A stretch of DNA of 64,000 nt from an uncultured Nitrososphaerota archaeon. Lineage in GTDB: Archaea > Thermoproteota > Nitrososphaeria > Nitrososphaerales > CADDZS01. This document shows, in pieces, positions 49,821-64,000 of the stretch. The stretch covers positions 960,001 to 1,024,000 of the forward strand of contig CAWCYI010000004.1 of assembly GCA_963799845.1 (NCBI GenBank), written 5' to 3'. Below the pieces are notes generated by a model, which worked only from the letters and a program-made list of their open reading frames with translations, ran no database searches and had not been told where the DNA came from. Position 1 is the stretch's first letter; every line of letters begins with the position of its first letter. The translations under genes were made by a program, and so were the position numbers.

Positions 49821-51842
49821 ATGTTCGAAAGACTTTTCTCGCCGATCGAAATCGGTCCGATCAGAGTAAAAAATCGGATTCAGCTTCCGCCGCACTCGCT
49901 CCACTATTTTGAGAATGGACTTCCAACCGACACTTTTCTCGAATATTATCTGGAGAGGGCCAGGGGCGGAGCCGGTCTGCTTGAAGTGTCGCAAATTTAC
50001 ATCAAATCTCCTACCGGAGTATTCTACCCGGAATGGGAGTACGACAACAAAAAAACGTGGCCGATGGTAAACAAACCGGAAATTGTGCAGAGCCTCAAGA
50101 AGCTCGCGGATGCCGTTCACGAGTTCGAGTCCAAGATTTTCATGGAGGTTTCTGCGTGGACTTTTCTTTACGGACCGGTTTCGAGCGTCCCCTTCGAAAC
50201 TGGCGTTAACCTGAACGAACTTACAATCTCGGATATTCACGAGATCGAGGAGGGATTTGCCGAAGCCTCTGGGTATGTGAAACAGAGTGGATTCGATGGA
50301 GTAGATCTGCATGGAACACACGGTGCCATGATCGAGCACTTTTATTCGCCAGTGATGAATCGGCGTGATGATCGATACGGTGGAAGTTTCGAAAACCGGA
50401 TGCGCTTTCTTCTTGAGTTGATCGAGATTGTAAAGGGGACAATCGGAGACTCCGTGGCTCTCGGAATGCGGCTCTGTGCCGATGAACAAATCCAAGATGG
50501 GGTGACTCCTGATTATGCCGCGAAGATAGCCGAAGTATTGGATGGACGCCTCGACTTCATCAACGTGGATCGAGGGTCGATGTACAACTACGATGTTCTT
50601 GATCAGAACGCACTCCAGACCGAACCGTTATACTCTCCCATCGGCTACGGAACTTACTTGTCCGAACCTATCAAGGCGAAGGTTAAGGAGACCAAAATCG
50701 GCCTCGCCGGAAGAATAACCGATGCCCTAATTGCTGATACGATCCTGGAAAGAGGTCAGGCGGATTTCGTTGGAATGACGAGAGCACTGATAGCGGATCC
50801 GTATTTCCCGAAGAAAGTCTTGGAGGGCAGAGTGCAGGACGTGAGGTCGTGCATTGGAACGCTTGAGGGATGCTGGGGAAGATCAGCAGCCCACGACTAC
50901 CCGATGAGATGCTCAGTGAATGCCGCAGTCGGGAGGGAATCTGAAAGAGGAGAAATGAAGATTCGACAGACTACAGTCCGGAAAAAAGTTCTTGTGATCG
51001 GCGCGGGCCCCGCAGGACTTGAAGCTGCACGCGTGTGCGCTCTCAGAGGACACGAGGTCGTCGTCTACGAGAAAGAATCGAAAGCTGGAGGACAGGTGAA
51101 TATCGGAAAGCTCATTCCGGGTAGATCAGACATTAGCTCGCTAGTCACTTGGCTAGAAAACCAGCTAAGATCTCTGAACGTCCGGATAGAGTACAATCGA
51201 GAAGTCCCTCCGTCGGAGGAGGTCGTGAAGTTTCTCGTTGAAGAGGAGGAGAAGCCCGACGTGATCATTCTCGCGACCGGTTCAACTCCGATCAAGAGCG
51301 GTATCCAGATGATTTCATTCCAGGAAGTTCCTGGATGGAAGGAGGCTGATGTTCACTCCGTCGATGAGCTTCTCTCAAGGCAAGTCCAGATTTCGGGAAG
51401 GAGGTTCTTAGTTGCTGACAGCACTCCGTACCTTCAGGGCCCGGGCGCTTGTCAGATGCTCGCACGAAACGGAGCTTCAGAAATTACCTTCGTAACTCCC
51501 CAGACGGAGATTTCCCCAGAGATGAACGACTATAACCAACTAATATACACAGTCAGAAGCTTGCGAGAAAATCATGTGCGCGTCCTAACATATTCCTGGA
51601 TCAGAAGAATAAACACTGACGGTGATAAGAAGGTCCTTGTTTACGACATTCCCACGGGCCAGGAAACAGAAGTACTGGTTGACGAGGTAATATTCTATAC
51701 GGGTCGAAAGCAGAACAATTCTCTTCACTCGATGTTCAAGAGTCTCGTCGAAGAGGTCTACGAAGTCGGAGACTGCCACATCGCTGGGGGCAAAATCCTG
51801 TCTGCGATAGACGAAGGGTTCAGCGTTGCAATGAAAATATGA
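49821..51842 (+). CDS. FadH/TMADH-type multidomain Old Yellow Enzyme oxidoreductase
   Basis: TIM-barrel motifs RARGGAGL, NRRDDRYGGSFENRMRF and RALIADP, an Fe-S segment, VIGAGPAGLEAA and VGDC. Confidence 0.9.
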   Translation: MFERLFSPIEIGPIRVKNRIQLPPHSLHYFENGLPTDTFLEYYLERARGGAGLLEVSQIYIKSPTGVFYPEWEYDNKKTWPMVNKPEIVQSLKKLADAVHEFESKIFMEVSAWTFLYGPVSSVPFETGVNLNELTISDIHEIEEGFAEASGYVKQSGFDGVDLHGTHGAMIEHFYSPVMNRRDDRYGGSFENRMRFLLELIEIVKGTIGDSVALGMRLCADEQIQDGVTPDYAAKIAEVLDGRLDFINVDRGSMYNYDVLDQNALQTEPLYSPIGYGTYLSEPIKAKVKETKIGLAGRITDALIADTILERGQADFVGMTRALIADPYFPKKVLEGRVQDVRSCIGTLEGCWGRSAAHDYPMRCSVNAAVGRESERGEMKIRQTTVRKKVLVIGAGPAGLEAARVCALRGHEVVVYEKESKAGGQVNIGKLIPGRSDISSLVTWLENQLRSLNVRIEYNREVPPSEEVVKFLVEEEEKPDVIILATGSTPIKSGIQMISFQEVPGWKEADVHSVDELLSRQVQISGRRFLVADSTPYLQGPGACQMLARNGASEITFVTPQTEISPEMNDYNQLIYTVRSLRENHVRVLTYSWIRRINTDGDKKVLVYDIPTGQETEVLVDEVIFYTGRKQNNSLHSMFKSLVEEVYEVGDCHIAGGKILSAIDEGFSVAMKI

Positions 51843-58127: not shown

Positions 58128-59363
58128 CTAACTCGTGATCTGTGGAAGTCCGTCCTGTTGCAGTACTTGATTCAGCAATGTCAGGTCGAACAGGCCGTTC
58201 AAGTTAGGCGCTGAAGTGCCCAGGAATCCCAGTTCGTAAGCATTCTGAGCTTGCTGTGTCACTGAGGCTTCCAGTGGATCGTAGGTGAACGTGAGATACT
58301 GGGTTGCGTTGTTGAATATGGTGGAGTTTGTCGGTGTGGTAGTTGTGAGGTTCGCGATCCTATTGTCGATAAGTGTAGCTGCCTGCACGGGGTTCTTTGT
58401 GATCCACATAGTGTCGTTGACATCAGCTTCGATGATTTTCTTCACGACGTCTGGGTGAGCATTCAGGAACGATGTGCTCACAACGAGTTCAGCGGTCGAA
58501 AAGTTTCCTCCAGGCCACAGACTCCTTTCGTCAAGGAATACATGGCAGTTTGCCTCAAAGATTAGCTGTGAGGCAGTTGGCTCCGGCACCCAGGCTCCAT
58601 CGAGCTGACCTTTTTCCATCAAAGTCAAGATGTTCGAGTTTGAGGTGTCCACTACCGAGACGTTGGTTCCCACGACGTAGTGATTTCGAAGCAAGAACGA
58701 CCTCAGAGCGATATCTTGGGTGTTGCCTAACTGTGGTGCTGCGAATGTCTTTCCAGTGAAATTCGCGACAGAGGTAATTCCATCGTTGTTCCTTACGACG
58801 AATACTGCTCCCCCGTTTGAAACTCCTGCGACAATCCTTAGCGCGGTACCGTTGGACTGGATGAATGCATTAACCGCAGGACTTGGTCCTACGTAAGCCA
58901 TGTCAAGTTGGCCTGCCAATAGGGCTGTCATCTCGGTCGGTCCTGCTGTGAACAGAGTTGTCTTGATTGTAGTTGTAGGTCCTAGATACGCCTGAAAGTC
59001 ACCATCAGAAAGGCCGACGATTGCCGGTGCGTGATTCAGGTTAGCAAAGTAACCTATCCTAACGAGATTAATGGAATTTGTTGCATTAGAACTTGAACTA
59101 GTCGTTGACGAGGTTGATGATACTGTGGTTGTGACTGGAACGAGAGACGTTGTTGTCGCCGTTGAGATGAGAGATTGTGTGCTAACTAGGGATGTTGTAG
59201 AAACTAGAGAGGTTGTACTCACCAACGTATTCGTTGTGGTGAGCGTCACCGTGCTTGCTTGTTCTGTTGTAGTCTTAGATCCGATACTTGACGCGGCGTA
59301 CGCTCCGCCAGCGATCAGCGCGATAATTATTACCGCGACTATAGCTATCATTGAGCTTTTCAA
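58128..59363 (-). CDS. Sulfonate/sulfate-type ABC substrate-binding protein (SsuA-like) with S/T linker
   Basis: Motifs RIGYFANLNHAPA, YVGPSPA, PQLGNTQD and AWVPEP. Confidence 0.9.
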   Translation of the reverse strand: MKSSMIAIVAVIIIALIAGGAYAASSIGSKTTTEQASTVTLTTTNTLVSTTSLVSTTSLVSTQSLISTATTTSLVPVTTTVSSTSSTTSSSSNATNSINLVRIGYFANLNHAPAIVGLSDGDFQAYLGPTTTIKTTLFTAGPTEMTALLAGQLDMAYVGPSPAVNAFIQSNGTALRIVAGVSNGGAVFVVRNNDGITSVANFTGKTFAAPQLGNTQDIALRSFLLRNHYVVGTNVSVVDTSNSNILTLMEKGQLDGAWVPEPTASQLIFEANCHVFLDERSLWPGGNFSTAELVVSTSFLNAHPDVVKKIIEADVNDTMWITKNPVQAATLIDNRIANLTTTTPTNSTIFNNATQYLTFTYDPLEASVTQQAQNAYELGFLGTSAPNLNGLFDLTLLNQVLQQDGLPQITS

Positions 59364-59639: not shown

Positions 59640-60116
59640 TTATCTGACAGTATTCTCAAGCTCTTGTCCTTCGTCGACCCTGAGCTGGCAGAAGCTGTAG
59701 AGAGCATCATAGAGCGGAAACTGAAGATTCATGTTTTCTTTGTCGTCTGGCGCGATCATCCTGAACCCGGTCGCAGCCGCTTCGAGTCCCGCAGATTCGG
59801 GAGCCGAATCAGTTGGCCCGGTTACTCTGGCATCCGCACCCCTGACTATTTTTGCAAGCTCCAGCAGAGGTTTATCTTTCAAATTGTACTTTTTTATTAG
59901 CGCGTCGAAGGTCACATGCTCCATGCCGTTGTCAAAATAATGAGACAATTCGACTCCCGGAACGTCGAAGGGAATCGCTCCCTCGTTCTTCGCAATCTCC
60001 AGGACTTTTTCCTTCGGGGCGAAGATGAATTGAGCATCCTTGTCTATGAATTTCCTGATCAGCCACGGACAGGCAATACGGTCAACCTTCGCTTTCTCTC
60101 TGGTAACCCATCTCAT
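59640..60116 (-). CDS. chrB: Chromate resistance protein ChrB (stand-alone C-terminal domain type)
   Basis: Motifs WVTREKAKVDRIACPWLIRKFID, PFD, IVRGAD, APESAGL and YDALY. Confidence 0.88.
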   Translation of the reverse strand: MRWVTREKAKVDRIACPWLIRKFIDKDAQFIFAPKEKVLEIAKNEGAIPFDVPGVELSHYFDNGMEHVTFDALIKKYNLKDKPLLELAKIVRGADARVTGPTDSAPESAGLEAAATGFRMIAPDDKENMNLQFPLYDALYSFCQLRVDEGQELENTVR

Positions 60117-60822: not shown

Positions 60823-62616
60823 ATGACGCAAGATAATAATCATTCTAATGAATCACCATCCAAGAACGGCAAAGGAGTCTCGAGAAGACAATTTCTCGTT
60901 GGCGCCGGAGCCGGCCTGGTAGTCGGAGCTGCGGTCGGTGCGGGGATCGGATCCCTAGGTTTCCCTCAAACCATTACAAAGAACCAGACTGAGACGACGA
61001 CGCAGACGACTGAGGTGCAGCCTTGGATTCCCGCGAGCTGGGATCAAACGGCTGACGTCGTGGTGCTCGGATATGGAGGCGCTGGCGCGATAACCGCAAT
61101 TACAGCGCATGATGCTGGGGCAAACGTGCTGATCTTGGAGAAGACTCCGAGTCTTGCCTCGCTCGCTGTTGCTGGCGCAAATATTTCCGGCGGTGGTGGT
61201 AACACTCACATAAATGGAGGACTCGTGGTCATTCCGGTTGACGCTACTAACGGGGCTACCGATGCTTACTCCCTTTGCTGGGGTACCACGCCCATGCCGG
61301 TTTGCCAAGCTTGGGCAAATGGCGCCGTCAACATCCCAGCCTACCTTGACGGATTGGGTCTTACTTACACTACGGCGCAGAATGCCGCTGAGCTCCCGAA
61401 TCTTCCCGGAGCTTCAACGATAACCGCGGCGACGATTAGCGGTGGAGGCACCGCTCTGTTCCATGCCCTCGATCAGGCTGTCCAGAGCAGGAAAATTAAC
61501 GTTCTTTTCAATACCCCAGCTACTGGTTTGATTCAAGATCCGGTCTCGAAAGAGATTCTGGGGGTCACTGCAATATCTAATCCCCCTCCCTCGACATCTT
61601 CGACATCATGGTGGACGGAGCCCGTAAGCGGAGGCACGGTAATTAACGTCAAGGCGAACAAGGCAATCGTTCTTTGCACTGGCGGGTTCGAATACGATGA
61701 CCAGATGAAGGCAAGTTATCTCAAAATGTATCCGGTCCATTTCTATGGCTGGCAGTACAACACTGGAGATGGGCTGCGTATGGCCACAAGAGCTGGTGCT
61801 AGTCTCTGGCACCTGAACATGTTCTCCGGGAGGTGCGTGCCGTGGTTTCCAGATCACGATATGGCGTATGGCTATTTCATTAACGCCGCCGGGACCCCGA
61901 TGATACTGGTTGACAAACACGGCAACCGTTATGCAGACGAAAGCTCAACGGCCGCCGGGCATAACTGGTGGGTGCTGCTCGATGATTTCGACATCAAAGT
62001 TCCAGAGTATACTCGCATCCCGACATTCATGATTTTTGATGGAGCAAGATTGAAGGCAGGTCCCATCAGTAGCTATGGAGGCGTCGCTTTACCGACCCAG
62101 CTTGGAGGTCTCACATGGAGCTCCGACAACAGTGCCGAGATTTCAAAGGGATGGATACTACAGGGCAGTACACCCGCAGATCTTGCTGCAGCTATAAACA
62201 GCACCACATTCGTAGGTTGGAATACCGACGATTCGGTACAAGTTCCGGAAGGCATCAACGTAAACATAGACGCGACAGAGTTGACAACAACCATTACCAA
62301 TTACAACAACTACTGTGCTGCCGCAAGCGATCCCGACTTTGGGAGAAATCCCAAGACATTGCTACCGTTTCAAACTCCACCATTTTATGCACTCGCGCTT
62401 TGGCCCGGAGGCCCTAATTCACAGGGAGGCCCCGTCAGAAACGAAAACGCGCAAGTCCTCGACACCGCAGGCAACCCCATCCCTCGCTTGTACAGTTGCG
62501 GCGAGCTGGGTTCCATGTGGGCCCTTTATCCGACGGGCGGGGGTAACAACAGCGAGCTTATCGTATTCGGCCAAATTGCCGGCAAGAATGCGGCAGCGGA
62601 GACCTCACAGTCTTGA
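60823..62616 (+). CDS. Tat-exported FAD-binding oxidoreductase (fumarate reductase flavoprotein/3-ketosteroid dehydrogenase superfamily)
   Basis: SRRQFL twin-arginine signal, DVVVLGYGGAG, LCTGGF, NTGDG, DPDFGR, QGGP and PIPRLYSCGE. Confidence 0.9.
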   Translation: MTQDNNHSNESPSKNGKGVSRRQFLVGAGAGLVVGAAVGAGIGSLGFPQTITKNQTETTTQTTEVQPWIPASWDQTADVVVLGYGGAGAITAITAHDAGANVLILEKTPSLASLAVAGANISGGGGNTHINGGLVVIPVDATNGATDAYSLCWGTTPMPVCQAWANGAVNIPAYLDGLGLTYTTAQNAAELPNLPGASTITAATISGGGTALFHALDQAVQSRKINVLFNTPATGLIQDPVSKEILGVTAISNPPPSTSSTSWWTEPVSGGTVINVKANKAIVLCTGGFEYDDQMKASYLKMYPVHFYGWQYNTGDGLRMATRAGASLWHLNMFSGRCVPWFPDHDMAYGYFINAAGTPMILVDKHGNRYADESSTAAGHNWWVLLDDFDIKVPEYTRIPTFMIFDGARLKAGPISSYGGVALPTQLGGLTWSSDNSAEISKGWILQGSTPADLAAAINSTTFVGWNTDDSVQVPEGINVNIDATELTTTITNYNNYCAAASDPDFGRNPKTLLPFQTPPFYALALWPGGPNSQGGPVRNENAQVLDTAGNPIPRLYSCGELGSMWALYPTGGGNNSELIVFGQIAGKNAAAETSQS

Positions 62617-62656
62617 ATGGTAAAGACTGCTCGGGCAGAAGGGAGATAACCGCAAA

Positions 62657-63587
62657 ATGTCAACCAAAGGATTTTCATTCTTTTTCAGGCGTTCATTAGC
62701 TGTTTGCTTAGCCCTAATTTTTCTGGCCAATCTAATCCTGTTTGTGCCTGCAAGTGAAGCAGCGACAACTATCACCGTGTACCAATCCCAGCATCCGGTA
62801 GTACTTGACGGCATTGTACAGCCCGGTGAATGGACCGACACGCCAATCATTACCGATTCCGGTTCCGGGTTAACTTACGCGTTCAAGCAGAACGGAACCG
62901 GGCTGCTTTTCCTGATGATTTGGAGCGAACCGACTCCCTGTCCAACGTGCTTTGGCGGGATTGAACTTGGCCATCTCAACAACACGGCGCCGATGGGAAG
63001 TTCATCAACTCCTACCATCATGATTCTTTCAAGTCCGTCGTTCAAAGGCAACGTCGATGAATTTATCTCGACGGGAGAATTCACGCCGACTTCGGTCGAG
63101 CAGGACGGTTACAAAACGCAATCCACATGCGGGGTCACTTACGCAAACGGCCAGTATACCGCAGAGTGCTATCGTCCGTTCAAGCTAACGGATGCATCGC
63201 CATATGACTTTCCGAATCTAACCGTTGGGTCTACTATCGAAATCGCGTTCGCAGTTGGACTCTTCAATCAACCAGGAAATCATCTGGCTACAGATATGTC
63301 AACATACGTCCTGACAATAACAAACCAGACTTATACGTCCACCGCGACGAGTACTTCCTCTCAGCTCCACATCATCAAGCCAAGTCTCAACTTCTACAAG
63401 CTCAAGTGGATCATTTTCTCCGACATCTACGTCCTCCAATAGTTCAACGTCGGTTTCAACATCAACGCAATCATCATCGGTGTCCACGACAGCGCAGGCG
63501 AATTACTACGCCGAGGAACTTCTAGTAATCATGGTGGGATTCAGTGTACTTACCATAATTGTGCTCATAAGATACGAAGGAAGTTGA
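62657..63587 (+). CDS. Secreted DOMON-like (putative heme b) protein with S/T linker and C-terminal TM anchor (frameshift at 63362)
   Basis: Signal peptide, LDG..QPGEW, G...PMGS, ECYRPF and IAFAVG...NH. Removing one C restores an S/T linker and the anchor LLVIMVGFSVLTIIVLIR. Confidence 0.7.
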
Positions 63588-63595
63588 GAACATAA

Positions 63596-64000
63596 ATGAT
63601 CGAAGTCTTCGGGATACCTATTTCGGTTGTACACGGTCTCTTCGTGGAGTTACATACCGGAGTCGCAGTCTTCGCATTTCTTGCACTGGTGGCGATGCTT
63701 CTGACAGACCTATCTTTGAGAGGAAAGCCTGCGACCACAAGTGTAGAGATCATCAGACGTGATGCCGACGCTATCGCCTATATCGGCGCCATCGTCGCCG
63801 TTTTCTTTCTCATTTTGTCCGGAATAACTGGATATCTGATCGAGCCGTATTCGACAATGGCTACTACTCCACTGCTCTTGAACAAAAGCCTGACCGCTCT
63901 CAGCTGCTCTCTACTTCTGGGCTGCCTATGCTTTCGTAAGATACTGGTGTGGGCCTGGATTGTGGCGAAAGGCAGGATTGTACGCGCTTGCATTCATCAC
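63596..64000 (+). CDS. Multi-pass membrane protein with His residues in the first helix (DUF2231/cytochrome b-like), runs off the window
   Basis: MIEVFGIPISVVHGLFVELHTGVAVFAFL...LILSGITGY...NKSLTAL. The start lies 8 nt after the DOMON gene stop. Confidence 0.7.
   Translation, partial: MIEVFGIPISVVHGLFVELHTGVAVFAFLALVAMLLTDLSLRGKPATTSVEIIRRDADAIAYIGAIVAVFFLILSGITGYLIEPYSTMATTPLLLNKSLTALSCSLLLGCLCFRKILVWAWIVAKGRIVRACIHH

What the first reader, a model, noticed from the sequence alone, without database searches (positions are those of the whole stretch)
60823..64000. Putative extracellular electron-transfer module: Tat flavoprotein + anchored DOMON heme protein + His-containing membrane protein
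Seen: three closely spaced co-directional genes (gaps of 40 and 8 nt). The first is a twin-arginine FAD enzyme with GPNSQGG where fumarate reductases have HHTMGG. The second is a secreted protein with DOMON-like motifs, candidate Met (PMGS) and His (GNH) ligands, a CPTC, an S/T stalk and a C-terminal anchor. The third is a membrane protein with HxxxxxxH in its first helix. None of the visible sequences has a CxxCH motif. Known: bacterial flavoproteins of this superfamily usually pair with c-type cytochromes, and DOMON domains bind heme b via Met/His and pair with cytochrome b561. Inference: this may be a heme-b-based archaeal analogue of flavocytochrome c that links oxidation or reduction of an unknown external organic substrate to the quinone pool.
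Basis: partly seen in the sequence, partly recalled or inferred. Interest (0 to 1): 0.8.

Follow-up and report, generated by a model that had tools for sequence, protein, structure and literature searches.

The report
Archaeal surface flavoenzyme–haem-b–membrane partner module
Three adjacent genes of a soil archaeon most likely encode an outward-facing flavin enzyme, a surface-anchored haem-b carrier and a small membrane partner that together pass electrons between an unknown outside substrate and the cell membrane.

Summary
Three co-directional genes (gaps 40 and 8 nt) encode a twin-arginine FAD_binding_2 enzyme, a secreted S/T-stalked, C-terminally anchored protein, and a 5-helix membrane protein.

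- **Frameshifts:** both apparent frameshifts (genes 2 and 3) are single extra bases that short-read contigs lack, so these are not pseudogenes.
- **Gene 2:** it models (pLDDT 92) closest to the haem-b subunits EbdC (Z 19.0) and NxrC (Z 18.2), ahead of CBM9 (Z 14-15). It keeps near-invariant Met113 and His209.
- **Gene 1:** the four fumarate-binding residues are replaced, and it passes no curated family cut-off.
- **Gene 3:** no known family or fold (sub-threshold DUF2231 hits only in distant relatives). His13 is kept across the wider family; His20 is not.
- **Synteny across 73 loci:** a FAD_binding_2 gene lies nearby in 23 of 26 loci with enough flank. Gene-2 copies with the Y-x-E-E-L…GF anchor are followed by gene 3 in 32 of 32 cases. 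Two other anchor types are followed by cytochromes b (9 of 9, 5 of 5). NiFe hydrogenase lies alongside in 7 of 26.
- **Gene 2–gene 3 complex prediction:** weak support.

Haem binding, substrate, electron direction and any quinone link are inferred, not shown. This is a new variant of flavoenzyme–cytochrome modules.

The parts
60823..62616 (+). Gene 1: Tat-exported FAD-dependent oxidoreductase of the soluble fumarate reductase / KstD superfamily, 597 aa, substrate unknown
   Evidence: PF00890 at E 5.5e-36. The best NCBIfam hits are all far below their cut-offs (TIGR01813 128.5 vs 285.45; PRK12844 118.1 vs 789). PDB sequence matches: Fcc3 at E 2e-24, urocanate reductase, KstD, cyclohexanone dehydrogenase 8am3.
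60880..60900 (+). Twin-arginine motif S-R-R-Q-F-L-V, followed by a long G/A/V-rich h-region and a T/Q-rich linker
   Evidence: Seen directly in the sequence. An RR motif occurs in 78 of the 120 listed homologues; many of the others are N-terminally truncated. TatC is present in the genome at 143.6 bits.
62410..62430 (+). GPNSQGG motif where flavocytochrome c3 has the substrate-binding HHTMGG
   Evidence: HMMER alignments to 1d4c and 1qo8.
62657..63587 (+). Gene 2: secreted, surface-anchored putative haem-b protein, 309 aa once the extra base at about 63362 is removed
   Evidence: ORFs. The base at 63362 is absent from contigs of 3 of 3 covering runs. 118 homologues, none with a Pfam domain.
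62762..63334 (+). EB_dh/NxrC-like beta-sandwich domain (residues 36-226) with C95/C98, C158/C171, M113 (62993-62995), H209 (63281-63283) and M214
   Evidence: AF2 pLDDT 92.3. VIA-align: 2ivf_C Z 19.0, rmsd 2.3 over 174 residues; 7b04_C Z 18.2. Foldseek: 7b04_O at E 4.5e-8. Conservation. Weak family hits: EB_dh E 0.0036, CbsA TIGR03154 E 8.6e-6.
63501..63584 (+). C-terminal membrane anchor NYYAEELLVIMVGFSVLTIIVLIRYEGS (class A anchor)
   Evidence: Y, E and G are invariant in 66 of 66 class-A homologues. Copies with this anchor are followed by gene 3 in 32 of 32 cases.
63596..64000 (+). Gene 3 (continues to 64226 beyond the window): 5-helix membrane protein, N-terminus outside, 209 aa once the extra base at about 63890-63901 is removed. 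H13 lies at 63632-63634, H20 at 63653-63655, N96-K97 at 63881-63886
   Evidence: ORFs. Intact identical protein P0245. One base left out at 63901 in a short-read contig. AF2 of the G006 orthologue: pLDDT 90.5, five long helices. No fold or family match. Conservation.

Best explanation
The three genes encode one outward-facing redox complex of a soil or peat Nitrososphaerales archaeon.

- **Gene 1** is folded with FAD in the cytoplasm, exported by the Tat system, and works on an unidentified organic substrate outside the membrane. The substrate is not fumarate.
- **Gene 2** is a Sec-exported beta-sandwich of the EB_dh/NxrC/CbsA kind. It is held above the membrane on a glycosylation-type S/T stalk, and most likely carries one haem b ligated by Met113 and His209.
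- **Gene 3** is a 5-helix membrane protein. It packs against the conserved Y-x-E-E-L…G-F anchor of gene 2. It has a conserved polar cluster (His13, Asn96-Lys97) at the outer end of its four-helix bundle, which I take to be a cofactor or quinone site.

I commit to the dehydrogenase direction: substrate -> FAD -> haem b (gene 2) -> gene 3 -> membrane electron-transport chain. My reason is that Met-ligated b haems of this fold are high-potential electron sinks.

Shown here: gene order, export signals, fold, conserved residues, conserved synteny, and the specific pairing of anchor type with membrane partner.

Inferred: haem binding, the ligands, any cofactor in gene 3, the link to quinone, the direction, and the substrate.
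For: **Fold and ligands of gene 2**
- The model has pLDDT 92.3. It is nearest to the haem-b subunits EbdC (Z 19.0, rmsd 2.3 over 174) and NxrC (Z 18.2). CBM9 follows at Z 14.2-14.7 and the CDH cytochrome at about 10.5. Foldseek put NxrC first at E 4.5e-8.
- M113, H209, M214 and four Cys are invariant or near-invariant. PGxH is present in 115 of 118 homologues.
- The Met-His spacing is 96. This resembles the ligand spacings I recall for EbdC (Met108/Lys201) and CDH (Met65/His163); those numbers are recalled and come from no call.
- hhalign to a true EB_dh protein of the same genome aligns the His209 loop (E 1.5e-4, probability 51%).
- A language-model look-up put EB_dh gamma subunits nearest at 0.90, which is a lead only.

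**Synteny**
- A FAD_binding_2 homologue lies in 14 of 15 genome loci and in 23 of 26 loci with enough flank.
- The intact trio is present in same-genus genome G006.
- The partner enzymes are only 26-76% identical to the G006 enzyme, so the haem protein serves many paralogues.

**Anchor type predicts the next gene**
- Class A is followed by gene 3 in 32 of 32 cases.
- Class B is followed by a hydrogenase-operon-type cytochrome b in 9 of 9.
- Class C is followed by a PF01292 cytochrome b in 5 of 5 (E 3.5e-15).
- Class D is followed by none of these in 9 of 9, and unclassified anchors by none in 4 of 4.
- So gene 3 occupies the place that cytochromes b of hydrogenase/formate-dehydrogenase type (PF01292) take elsewhere.

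**Topology of gene 3**
- K/R counts in the loops (12 inside, 2 outside, read from the sequence with the helices) put the N-terminus and His13 on the outer side.

**Complex prediction for gene 2 plus gene 3** (G006 pair, two haems riding along)
- Weak support: ipSAE median 0.56 (runs 0.56, 0.74, 0.01), best control 0.00.
- In the tool's calibration the mark was reached by 58 of 80 solved complexes and 2 of 110 mismatched pairs. At 0.60 or under it was reached by only 7 of those 80 and by both mismatches.
- The runs agree in at least 42% of contacts, and partner pLDDT is at least 68.

**Other**
- TatC is present in the genome.
- Both frameshifts are assembly errors.
Against: - No haem, flavin, substrate or quinone was measured.
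- Gene 2 misses the Pfam EB_dh cut-off (17.8 vs 33.3 bits). Its G006 orthologue has no hit at all. A profile search of PDB sequences found nothing.
- CBM9 sugar-binding modules share the fold at Z 14-15. The Met-His geometry in the model could not be read.
- Gene 3 has no recognisable redox-protein family or fold. Only one His is conserved family-wide.
- The complex prediction is only weak, and one of three runs scored 0.01.
- Against the chosen direction: the exported members of this flavoenzyme superfamily whose function I know are reductases (Fcc3, urocanate reductase, Cgr2; passages of PMC5953540 read; the rest recalled).
- Also against the direction: an uptake-type NiFe hydrogenase lies beside the cluster in 6 of 15 genome loci and 7 of 26 loci with enough flank. 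That fits a donor-plus-acceptor pair.
- Loci are not independent; several contigs are near-identical.
Confidence: 0.4

Rival explanations
1. Same three-part complex, run in reverse as a terminal respiratory reductase. Electrons from H2 (via the neighbouring NiFe hydrogenase and its cytochrome b) or from other donors enter the quinone pool. They pass through gene 3 and the gene-2 haem to the exported flavoenzyme. The flavoenzyme reduces an external organic acceptor such as an unsaturated acid. This would be an archaeal, c-cytochrome-free counterpart of Fcc3, urocanate reductase or Cgr1/Cgr2.
For: - NiFe hydrogenase subunits lie beside the cluster in 6 of 15 genome loci (L009, L010, L011, L013, L014, L015) and in 7 of 26 loci with enough flank. 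In G006 the hydrogenase is immediately upstream, on the opposite strand.
- Cgr2 is a Tat-exported PF00890 reductase paired with a membrane cytochrome (PMC5953540, passages).
- Large families of respiratory flavin reductases are described in gut bacteria (10.1101/2022.12.26.521950; only the search listing and the start of the abstract were seen).
- The runs holding the sequence are labelled soil and peat metagenomes. That such sites are often anoxic is my own knowledge.
Against: - The window's own genome has no NiFe hydrogenase found with PF00374, at 86.68% completeness.
- A Met-ligated haem b is usually too high in potential to feed FAD (established chemistry, not measured here).
- The Ni_hydr_CYTB-type cytochromes b that replace gene 3 in other loci normally take electrons in from periplasmic dehydrogenases. 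This is recalled; PhsC is an exception.
- The catalytic Arg and His residues of fumarate-type reductases are all replaced.
Confidence: 0.3
2. Gene 2 carries no haem. It is a CBM9-like binding or spacer module that holds the flavoenzyme or its polymeric substrate at the cell surface, and gene 3 is merely its membrane dock. The flavoenzyme then uses O2 or a soluble acceptor.
For: - CBM9 modules match the model at Z 14.2-14.7, and 1i82 at Foldseek E 1.3e-6.
- No Pfam haem family passes its cut-off.
- Two outlying homologues (P0235, P0236) lack the His.
Against: - Haem-b subunits match 4 Z units better.
- Met and His are near-invariant, at the spacing I recall for haem ligands in this fold.
- Other members of the family are followed by bona fide cytochromes b in 14 of 14 class B and C cases. 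A sugar binder would have no reason to be.
- No glycoside hydrolase lies nearby.
Confidence: 0.1
3. Gene 2 is a cytochrome-c substitute that hands electrons to blue copper proteins or a terminal oxidase on the outer face, as CbsA is thought to do in Sulfolobus. Gene 3 then has no redox role and there is no link to quinone.
For: - Architecture like CbsA (recalled): signal peptide, haem-b domain, S/T stalk, C-terminal anchor, followed by a hydrophobic partner gene.
- A weak TIGR03154 hit at E 8.6e-6.
- Class D copies have no membrane partner gene (0 of 9).
- No CxxCH in any of the three proteins.
- Gene 3 has no detectable redox family.
Against: - The strict pairing of anchor classes B and C with Ni_hydr_CYTB-family (PF01292) or hydrogenase-operon-type cytochromes b.
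- Conserved polar residues at the outer end of the gene-3 bundle.
- Gene 3 has no hit to any NCBIfam model at E up to 1, so it is not a detectable CbsB.
Confidence: 0.12

Closest known systems
Gamma (haem b) subunits of type II DMSO-reductase-family enzymes: EbdC of ethylbenzene dehydrogenase (2ivf_C), NxrC of Kuenenia nitrite oxidoreductase (7b04), steroid C25 dehydrogenase gamma
   Same: Best structural matches of the gene-2 domain: Z 19.0 and 18.2. Exported single-haem-b beta-sandwich with a Met ligand. Weak PF09459 hit.
   Different: The partner is a FAD_binding_2 flavoenzyme, not a Mo-bisPGD/FeS alpha-beta pair. The second ligand position holds His, not Lys (position inferred). It has an S/T stalk and membrane anchor, plus a dedicated membrane partner. 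It scores below the Pfam cut-off.
Sulfolobus cytochrome b558/566, CbsA with CbsB
   Same: Archaeal, extracellular, stalked and C-terminally anchored haem-b protein followed by a hydrophobic partner gene (recalled). Weak TIGR03154 hit at E 8.6e-6 over residues 157-236.
   Different: 24.8 bits against a cut-off of 468.4. Gene 3 has no NCBIfam hit at E up to 1. The genomic partner here is a flavoenzyme rather than the SoxL/SoxN Rieske-cytochrome b genes (recalled).
Exported flavoenzyme plus membrane cytochrome pairs: Shewanella flavocytochrome c3, urocanate reductase, Eggerthella Cgr1/Cgr2
   Same: Tat or periplasmic PF00890 enzyme coupled to a haem carrier that connects it to the membrane (PMC5953540 passages). 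Best PDB sequence matches of gene 1.
   Different: The carrier here is a putative haem b beta-sandwich, not a multihaem c-type cytochrome; none of the three proteins has CxxCH. The fumarate-binding residues are replaced. The organism is an archaeon. The direction is unknown.
Fungal cellobiose dehydrogenase (flavin dehydrogenase plus Met/His cytochrome b domain)
   Same: Extracellular flavoenzyme feeding a Met/His haem b in a DOMON-like beta-sandwich. The fold matches at Z about 10.5.
   Different: The flavin domain is GMC-type and fused in one chain. There is no membrane anchor or partner. It is a more distant structural match than EbdC or NxrC.
DUF2231 (PF09990) predicted membrane proteins
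   Same: Sub-threshold, near full-length hits in 6 of 67 distant relatives of gene 3 (E 3.5e-5 to 7.5e-3). An atlas lead at 0.87.
   Different: Gene 3 and its orthologue have no hit themselves. DUF2231 has no known function; one full-text search returned a single database paper.

Membership tests
Flavocytochrome c3 / soluble fumarate reductase (TIGR01813) | Score above the curated family cut-off | tested here: not met
   128.5 bits against 285.45.
Flavocytochrome c3 / soluble fumarate reductase (TIGR01813) | Fumarate-binding and catalytic His365, Arg402, His504, Arg545 (numbering recalled) | tested here: not met
   In the HMMER alignments to 1d4c and 1qo8 the aligned residues are Pro, Ala, Asn and Pro; HHTMGG becomes GPNSQGG. 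The alignment in the middle domain is weak.
Flavocytochrome c3 / soluble fumarate reductase (TIGR01813) | c-type haem domain or partner (CxxCH) | tested here: not met
   No CxxCH in any of the three products.
FAD_binding_2 superfamily (PF00890) | Full-length domain above cut-off | tested here: met
   125.1 bits against 20.4, residues 78-573.
3-ketosteroid delta-1-dehydrogenase / cyclohexanone dehydrogenase | Family cut-off; catalytic Tyr residues | tested here: not met
   PRK12844 118.1 bits against 789; PRK07843 88.7 against 788. The catalytic tyrosines were not examined.
Tat substrates | S/T-R-R-x-F-L motif before a hydrophobic stretch, and a Tat translocase in the genome | tested here: met
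   SRRQFLV at residues 20-26. TatC at 143.6 bits. The RR motif occurs in 78 of 120 homologues. Export itself was not tested.
EB_dh (PF09459) haem-b gamma subunits | Pfam gathering score | tested here: not met
   17.8 bits against 33.3 for the window protein. No hit for the G006 orthologue.
EB_dh (PF09459) haem-b gamma subunits | Fold | tested here: met
   2ivf_C: Z 19.0, rmsd 2.3, 174 aligned. 7b04_C: Z 18.2.
EB_dh (PF09459) haem-b gamma subunits | Axial Met and Lys ligands binding haem b | tested here: inconclusive
   Met113 is conserved. His209 sits in the loop that aligns within a few residues of a Lys in a true EB_dh protein.
EB_dh (PF09459) haem-b gamma subunits | Encoded with Mo-bisPGD alpha and FeS beta subunits | tested here: not met
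   The neighbours are FAD_binding_2 genes, cytochromes b and hydrogenase.
CbsA (TIGR03154) / CbsB | Equivalog cut-offs | tested here: not met
   24.8 bits against 468.4. Gene 3 has no NCBIfam hit at E up to 1.
DOMON (PF03351) with cytochrome b561 partner | DOMON profile match and a b561 membrane partner | tested here: not met
   No DOMON hit at E up to 0.1. The fold is related at Z 10-12. Gene 3 has no b561 or Ni_hydr_CYTB hit, and hhalign probability is 0.1.
CBM9 carbohydrate-binding modules | Fold and sugar-clamping aromatic residues | tested here: inconclusive
   The fold is shared at Z 14.2-14.7, below the haem proteins. The sugar-binding residues were not compared.
DUF2231 (PF09990) | Pfam gathering score | tested here: inconclusive
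   No hit for gene 3. 6 of 67 distant relatives score 16.8-24.3 bits against a cut-off of 26.4.

The most novel reading that the evidence does not exclude
Group I.1c-type soil and peat Nitrososphaerales, which lack c-type cytochromes, have evolved a modular family of stalked surface haem-b 'wires'. Interchangeable transmembrane anchors plug these wires into at least three different membrane partners: the gene-3 family and two cytochrome b types. Through them, a diversified set of exported flavoenzymes and an uptake hydrogenase are wired into a respiration on external organic compounds. In the boldest form this is H2-driven reduction of soil organic acceptors, an archaeal counterpart of bacterial flavin-reductase respiration. 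Gene 3 would then be a new kind of haem- or quinone-binding membrane subunit using His13 and Lys97.
Probability: 0.3. Interest if true: 0.8.

Novelty: new variant of a known kind. Interest (0 to 1): 0.62.

Why it matters
The relatives that carry names are non-ammonia-oxidising Nitrososphaerales of acidic soils and peat. One locus record is titled Candidatus Gagatemarchaeum. These organisms are abundant but uncultured, and their energy metabolism is known only from genome inference. A term search of the main genomic study of that family found no mention of a flavoprotein, fumarate reductase or hydrogenase (PMC10640624).

A conserved, outward-facing flavoenzyme–haem b–membrane module, often next to an uptake hydrogenase, gives a concrete and testable route by which these archaea could oxidise or respire external organic matter without c-type cytochromes.

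It also widens the known use of the EB_dh/NxrC haem-b fold from molybdoenzymes to flavoenzymes. And it assigns a first context to a small membrane protein family with no known function.

Tried and rejected
- **PDB profile search with the gene-2 alignment:** 0 matches at E up to 10.
- **Fold searches for gene 3:** Foldseek best E was 0.36. The VIA-align wide search gave only generic helical bundles at Z 12.1 or less, below the level the tool calls meaningful for helical proteins.
- **Gene 3 against a cytochrome b:** hhalign against the L017 Ni_hydr_CYTB protein gave probability 0.1.
- **Pseudogene reading of genes 2 and 3:** rejected, because short-read contigs lack the extra bases.
- **Fumarate or urocanate reductase reading of gene 1:** rejected on the replaced substrate-binding residues and the family cut-offs.
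- **Distribution among relatives:** the gene-2 query found a match in only 1 of 60 relatives' genomes, a same-genus one. This means not found in those searched with this query, and many of those genomes are incomplete.
- **Earlier findings of this scan:** nothing by place or by sequence. The look-up by words failed on a bad word and was not repeated.
- **Literature:**
  - 'DUF2231' returned one unrelated database paper.
  - 'ethylbenzene dehydrogenase' + 'heme b' + Lys201 + Met108 returned none, so the ligand numbers stay recalled.
  - DOMON / ethylbenzene dehydrogenase / archaea / FAD / cytochrome b returned 9 papers. Judged from titles and abstract starts only, none is about such an archaeal module.
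  - No print description of this trio was found in those searches. Subscription papers and supplements were not searched.
- **RNA evidence:** one 162-nt contig of a peat metatranscriptome run (X5) is identical over 63115-63254. DNA carry-over cannot be excluded, so transcription is not shown.
- **Not attempted:** a reference tree of gene 1 with KstD, TcuA, UrdA and Fcc, because no reference sequences could be brought in.

Full report
**What is in the sequence**

Gene 1 runs 60823-62616 (+) and encodes 597 aa. Gene 2 starts 40 nt later at 62657. Gene 3 starts at 63596, 8 nt after the stop at 63587.

In the window gene 2 reads 261 aa in one frame, then continues in the +1 frame (63321-63587) through an S/T-rich stalk and a hydrophobic C-terminus. 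Gene 3 likewise changes frame near 63890-63901 and ends at 64226, beyond the window.

Laying public contigs on 62600-64000 showed that all three DNA runs covering 63362 (X1, X2, X3, one study) lack one base there. One contig (X1) lacks one base at 63901. There were no other differences. An intact 209-aa protein identical to both halves of gene 3 is in the protein collection (P0245).

Both breaks are therefore single-base insertions of this assembly. Other genes downstream are split in the same way (NicO, a molybdopterin oxidoreductase). The runs may include the sample the window was assembled from, so this is a different assembly rather than an independent population.

**Gene 1**

- It carries S-R-R-Q-F-L-V at residues 20-26, then a long G/A/V-rich stretch and a T/Q-rich linker.
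- It holds a full-length FAD_binding_2 domain (E 5.5e-36).
- Every curated NCBIfam model is missed by a wide margin. Flavocytochrome c scores 128.5 against 285.45, KstD 118.1 against 789, and TcuA 99.1 against 369.
- The best solved relatives by sequence are Shewanella flavocytochromes c3 (E 2e-24), urocanate reductase, KstD-type dehydrogenases, and cyclohexanone dehydrogenase 8am3 (identified through the listing of PMC10966990).
- In the printed alignments the four residues that bind and protonate fumarate in Fcc3 (His365, Arg402, His504, Arg545; numbering recalled) align with Pro, Ala, Asn and Pro. HHTMGG becomes GPNSQGG.
- None of the three products has CxxCH.
- The genome has TatC.
- The RR motif occurs in 78 of the 120 listed homologues. 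Many of the rest start inside the hydrophobic stretch.

So gene 1 is an exported flavoenzyme of a new subfamily. Its substrate is unknown and is not fumarate.

**Gene 2**

Sequence searches:
- Single-sequence searches give only weak hints: EB_dh at E 0.0036 and Sulfolobus CbsA TIGR03154 at E 8.6e-6, both far below their cut-offs.
- The G006 orthologue gives no hit.
- 118 homologues were found. None carries a Pfam domain, and the few that are named are all from Nitrososphaerales.

Conservation:
- C95, C98, C158, C171, M113, H209 and M214 are invariant or near-invariant.
- PGxH is present in 115 of 118 homologues.

Structure:
- An AlphaFold2 model built on 70 sequences has pLDDT 92.3.
- Foldseek places NxrC first (E 4.5e-8).
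- VIA-align gives EbdC at Z 19.0 (rmsd 2.3 over 174 residues), NxrC at Z 18.2, CBM9 at 14.2-14.7, the DOMON domain of dopamine beta-hydroxylase at 11.8, and cellobiose dehydrogenase cytochrome domains at about 10.5.
- The Met-His spacing of 96 resembles the ligand spacings I recall for EbdC (Met108/Lys201) and CDH (Met65/His163). A literature search did not retrieve those numbers.
- hhalign against a true EB_dh protein of the same genome aligns the C-terminal strands and puts His209 within a few residues of that protein's Lys (E 1.5e-4, probability 51%).
- A language-model look-up listed steroid C25 dehydrogenase gamma subunits first at 0.90, which is only a lead.

I could not read the model's coordinates, so the ligand geometry is untested.

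**Gene 3**

- The orthologue from G006 models at pLDDT 90.5 as five long helices: 9-41, 47-82, 92-118, 126-153 and 179-203.
- Counting K and R in the loops gives 12 on the side of loops 1 and 3 and the C-terminus, and 2 on the other side. So the N-terminus and the start of helix 1 face outward (read from the sequence).
- No family or fold was recognised.
- A profile search of 1.84 billion representatives found 109 proteins at E up to 0.001.
- 6 of the 67 that I scanned have sub-threshold, near full-length DUF2231 hits.
- Conservation:
  - In 69 distant members His13 is kept in 66, Asn96 in 67 and Lys97 in 67.
  - Trp108, Arg115 and Trp123 are also kept in most of them.
  - His20 is kept in only 27 of the 69.
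  - In the close family both His residues are kept in 35 of 35 sequences that cover them.
- One orthologue (L007) has Pro at position 20.

**Context in other genomes**

The same-genus genome G006 has the intact trio in the same order. An uptake-type NiFe hydrogenase operon (small subunit, cytochrome b, large subunit) lies immediately upstream on the other strand.

I examined fifteen genome loci and 58 metagenome loci holding a gene-2 relative.

- A FAD_binding_2 homologue is present in 14 of 15 genome loci, and in 23 of 26 loci with at least 2.5 kb upstream or 3 kb downstream.
- These enzymes are only 26-76% identical to the G006 enzyme, so the haem protein accompanies many paralogues.
- Gene-2 relatives fall into anchor classes.

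| Anchor class | Followed by | Count |
|---|---|---|
| A (Y-x-E-E-L…G-F…R-Y-x-R-S, as in the window) | gene 3 | 32 of 32 (1 further copy had too little flank) |
| B (…LGIGVALRAKK) | cytochrome b, 39-50% identical by tblastn to the one inside the hydrogenase operons | 9 of 9 (2 too short) |
| C (GPYLP…HF…W) | PF01292 cytochrome b (E 3.5e-15) | 5 of 5 (2 too short) |
| D (extra domain) | none of these | 0 of 9 |
| Unclassified | none of these | 0 of 4 |

Supporting calls for the table are 43, 70, 72 and 88.

- Hydrogenase subunits lie beside the cluster in 6 of 15 genome loci and in 7 of 26 loci with enough flank.
- Several contigs are near-identical, so these counts overstate independence.
- The window's own genome (86.68% complete) has one copy each of genes 2 and 3, and no hydrogenase was found. 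However, NikR and a nickel transporter lie directly downstream of gene 3.

**Complex prediction**

I folded the G006 gene-2 and gene-3 proteins together with their alignments and two haems riding along. The verdict was weak support.

- ipSAE was 0.56, 0.74 and 0.01 (median 0.56), and the best of three controls was 0.00.
- In the tool's calibration the mark was reached by 58 of 80 solved complexes and 2 of 110 mismatched pairs. At 0.60 or under it was reached by only 7 of the 80 and by both mismatches.
- The runs agree in at least 42% of contacts, and partner pLDDT is at least 68.
- The calibration held no riding ligand and did not use my own alignments.

**Reading**

The simplest account is one outward-facing complex of three parts:
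- a Tat-exported flavoenzyme;
- a stalked haem-b carrier;
- a membrane partner that recognises the carrier's anchor.

Gene 3 sits exactly where cytochromes b of the hydrogenase/formate-dehydrogenase type (PF01292) sit for other anchor classes. That is the main reason to think it connects the carrier to the membrane electron-transport chain.

The direction is open.
- For substrate oxidation: Met-ligated b haems of this fold are high-potential acceptors in EbdC, NxrC and CDH. HyaC/FdnI-type cytochromes b usually take electrons into the quinone pool. Both points are established knowledge, recalled.
- For substrate reduction: exported relatives of known function are reductases (Cgr2 with Cgr1; passages of PMC5953540). 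A hydrogenase is often adjacent.
- I put 0.40 on the dehydrogenase form and 0.30 on the reductase form. The remainder goes to a haem-free gene 2 or a redox-inert gene 3.

**Comparison and novelty**

The parts resemble known things: EB_dh-type gamma subunits, CbsA/CbsB, flavocytochrome c3, Cgr1/Cgr2 and cellobiose dehydrogenase. No family membership test is passed beyond FAD_binding_2, the Tat signal and the EB_dh fold.

I found no description of an EB_dh-fold haem protein serving a flavoenzyme, or of the anchor-specific partner system. This rests on three things:
- the literature searches;
- the term search of the family's main genomic paper;
- earlier notes of this scan.

Supplements and subscription journals were not searched. 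I rate it a new variant of a known kind: flavoenzyme–cytochrome modules on the outer face of the membrane.

Noticed in passing
L002 4901-5966 (= window coordinates 64901-65966, beyond the window); L002 7678-10195; L021 900-2199: Several other genes of this assembly are split by apparent frameshifts: the NicO nickel transporter, a molybdopterin-binding aldehyde oxidase/xanthine dehydrogenase-type subunit, and an EB_dh protein. The two breaks I could test were single extra bases that short-read contigs lack. Gene calls in this genome therefore need indel-aware reading.
   Followed up: partly
L002 4326-4733 (-) and 4901-5966 (+), just downstream of gene 3: NikR (NikR_C at E 4.2e-23) and a NicO nickel transporter lie next to the trio. 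In relatives the trio lies next to a NiFe hydrogenase, but PF00374 found no hydrogenase in this 86.68%-complete genome. This could be a remnant of a hydrogenase neighbourhood, or the hydrogenase may simply be unassembled.
   Followed up: partly
G000:C7:92244-93009 (L021 900-2199): A second protein of the genome is a bona fide EB_dh-domain protein (36.1 and 34.3 bits, over the cut-off). It also has an S/T stalk and a C-terminal membrane anchor, so it is CbsA-like. Its neighbours were not studied.
   Followed up: partly
Proteins P0121, P0122 (and P0129); P0193, P0227, P0232: Some gene-2 relatives carry two tandem putative haem domains in one chain. Others carry an extra C-terminal domain of about 150-200 aa before a different anchor (class D).
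   Followed up: no
L009 1-6004; L010 1-9690; L011; L013; L015: In several genomes the order is hydrogenase small subunit, cytochrome b, large subunit, gene 2 (class A), gene 3, gene 2 (class D), then one or two FAD enzymes. In L009 a class D copy follows the hydrogenase operon directly.
   Followed up: partly
window 63115-63254: A 162-nt contig of a peat metatranscriptome run (X5, a study other than the DNA runs) is identical over 140 nt of gene 2, with adapter letters at both ends. This is a hint of transcription in peat, but DNA carry-over is not excluded.
   Followed up: no
window 58128-59363 (-): The NMT1-like ABC substrate-binding protein carries a long S/T-rich stretch after its N-terminal hydrophobic segment. 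This is the same stalk style as gene 2, and suggests that such stalks are a general surface-protein feature of this organism.
   Followed up: no
window 59640-60116 (-): A stand-alone ChrB_C domain protein (E 3.8e-44) lies upstream on the opposite strand. No chromate transporter was seen in the stretch examined.
   Followed up: no
window 49821-51842 (+): An Oxidored_FMN plus Pyr_redox_2 fusion (2,4-dienoyl-CoA reductase-like) followed by a short-chain dehydrogenase. This fits a heterotrophic lifestyle.
   Followed up: no
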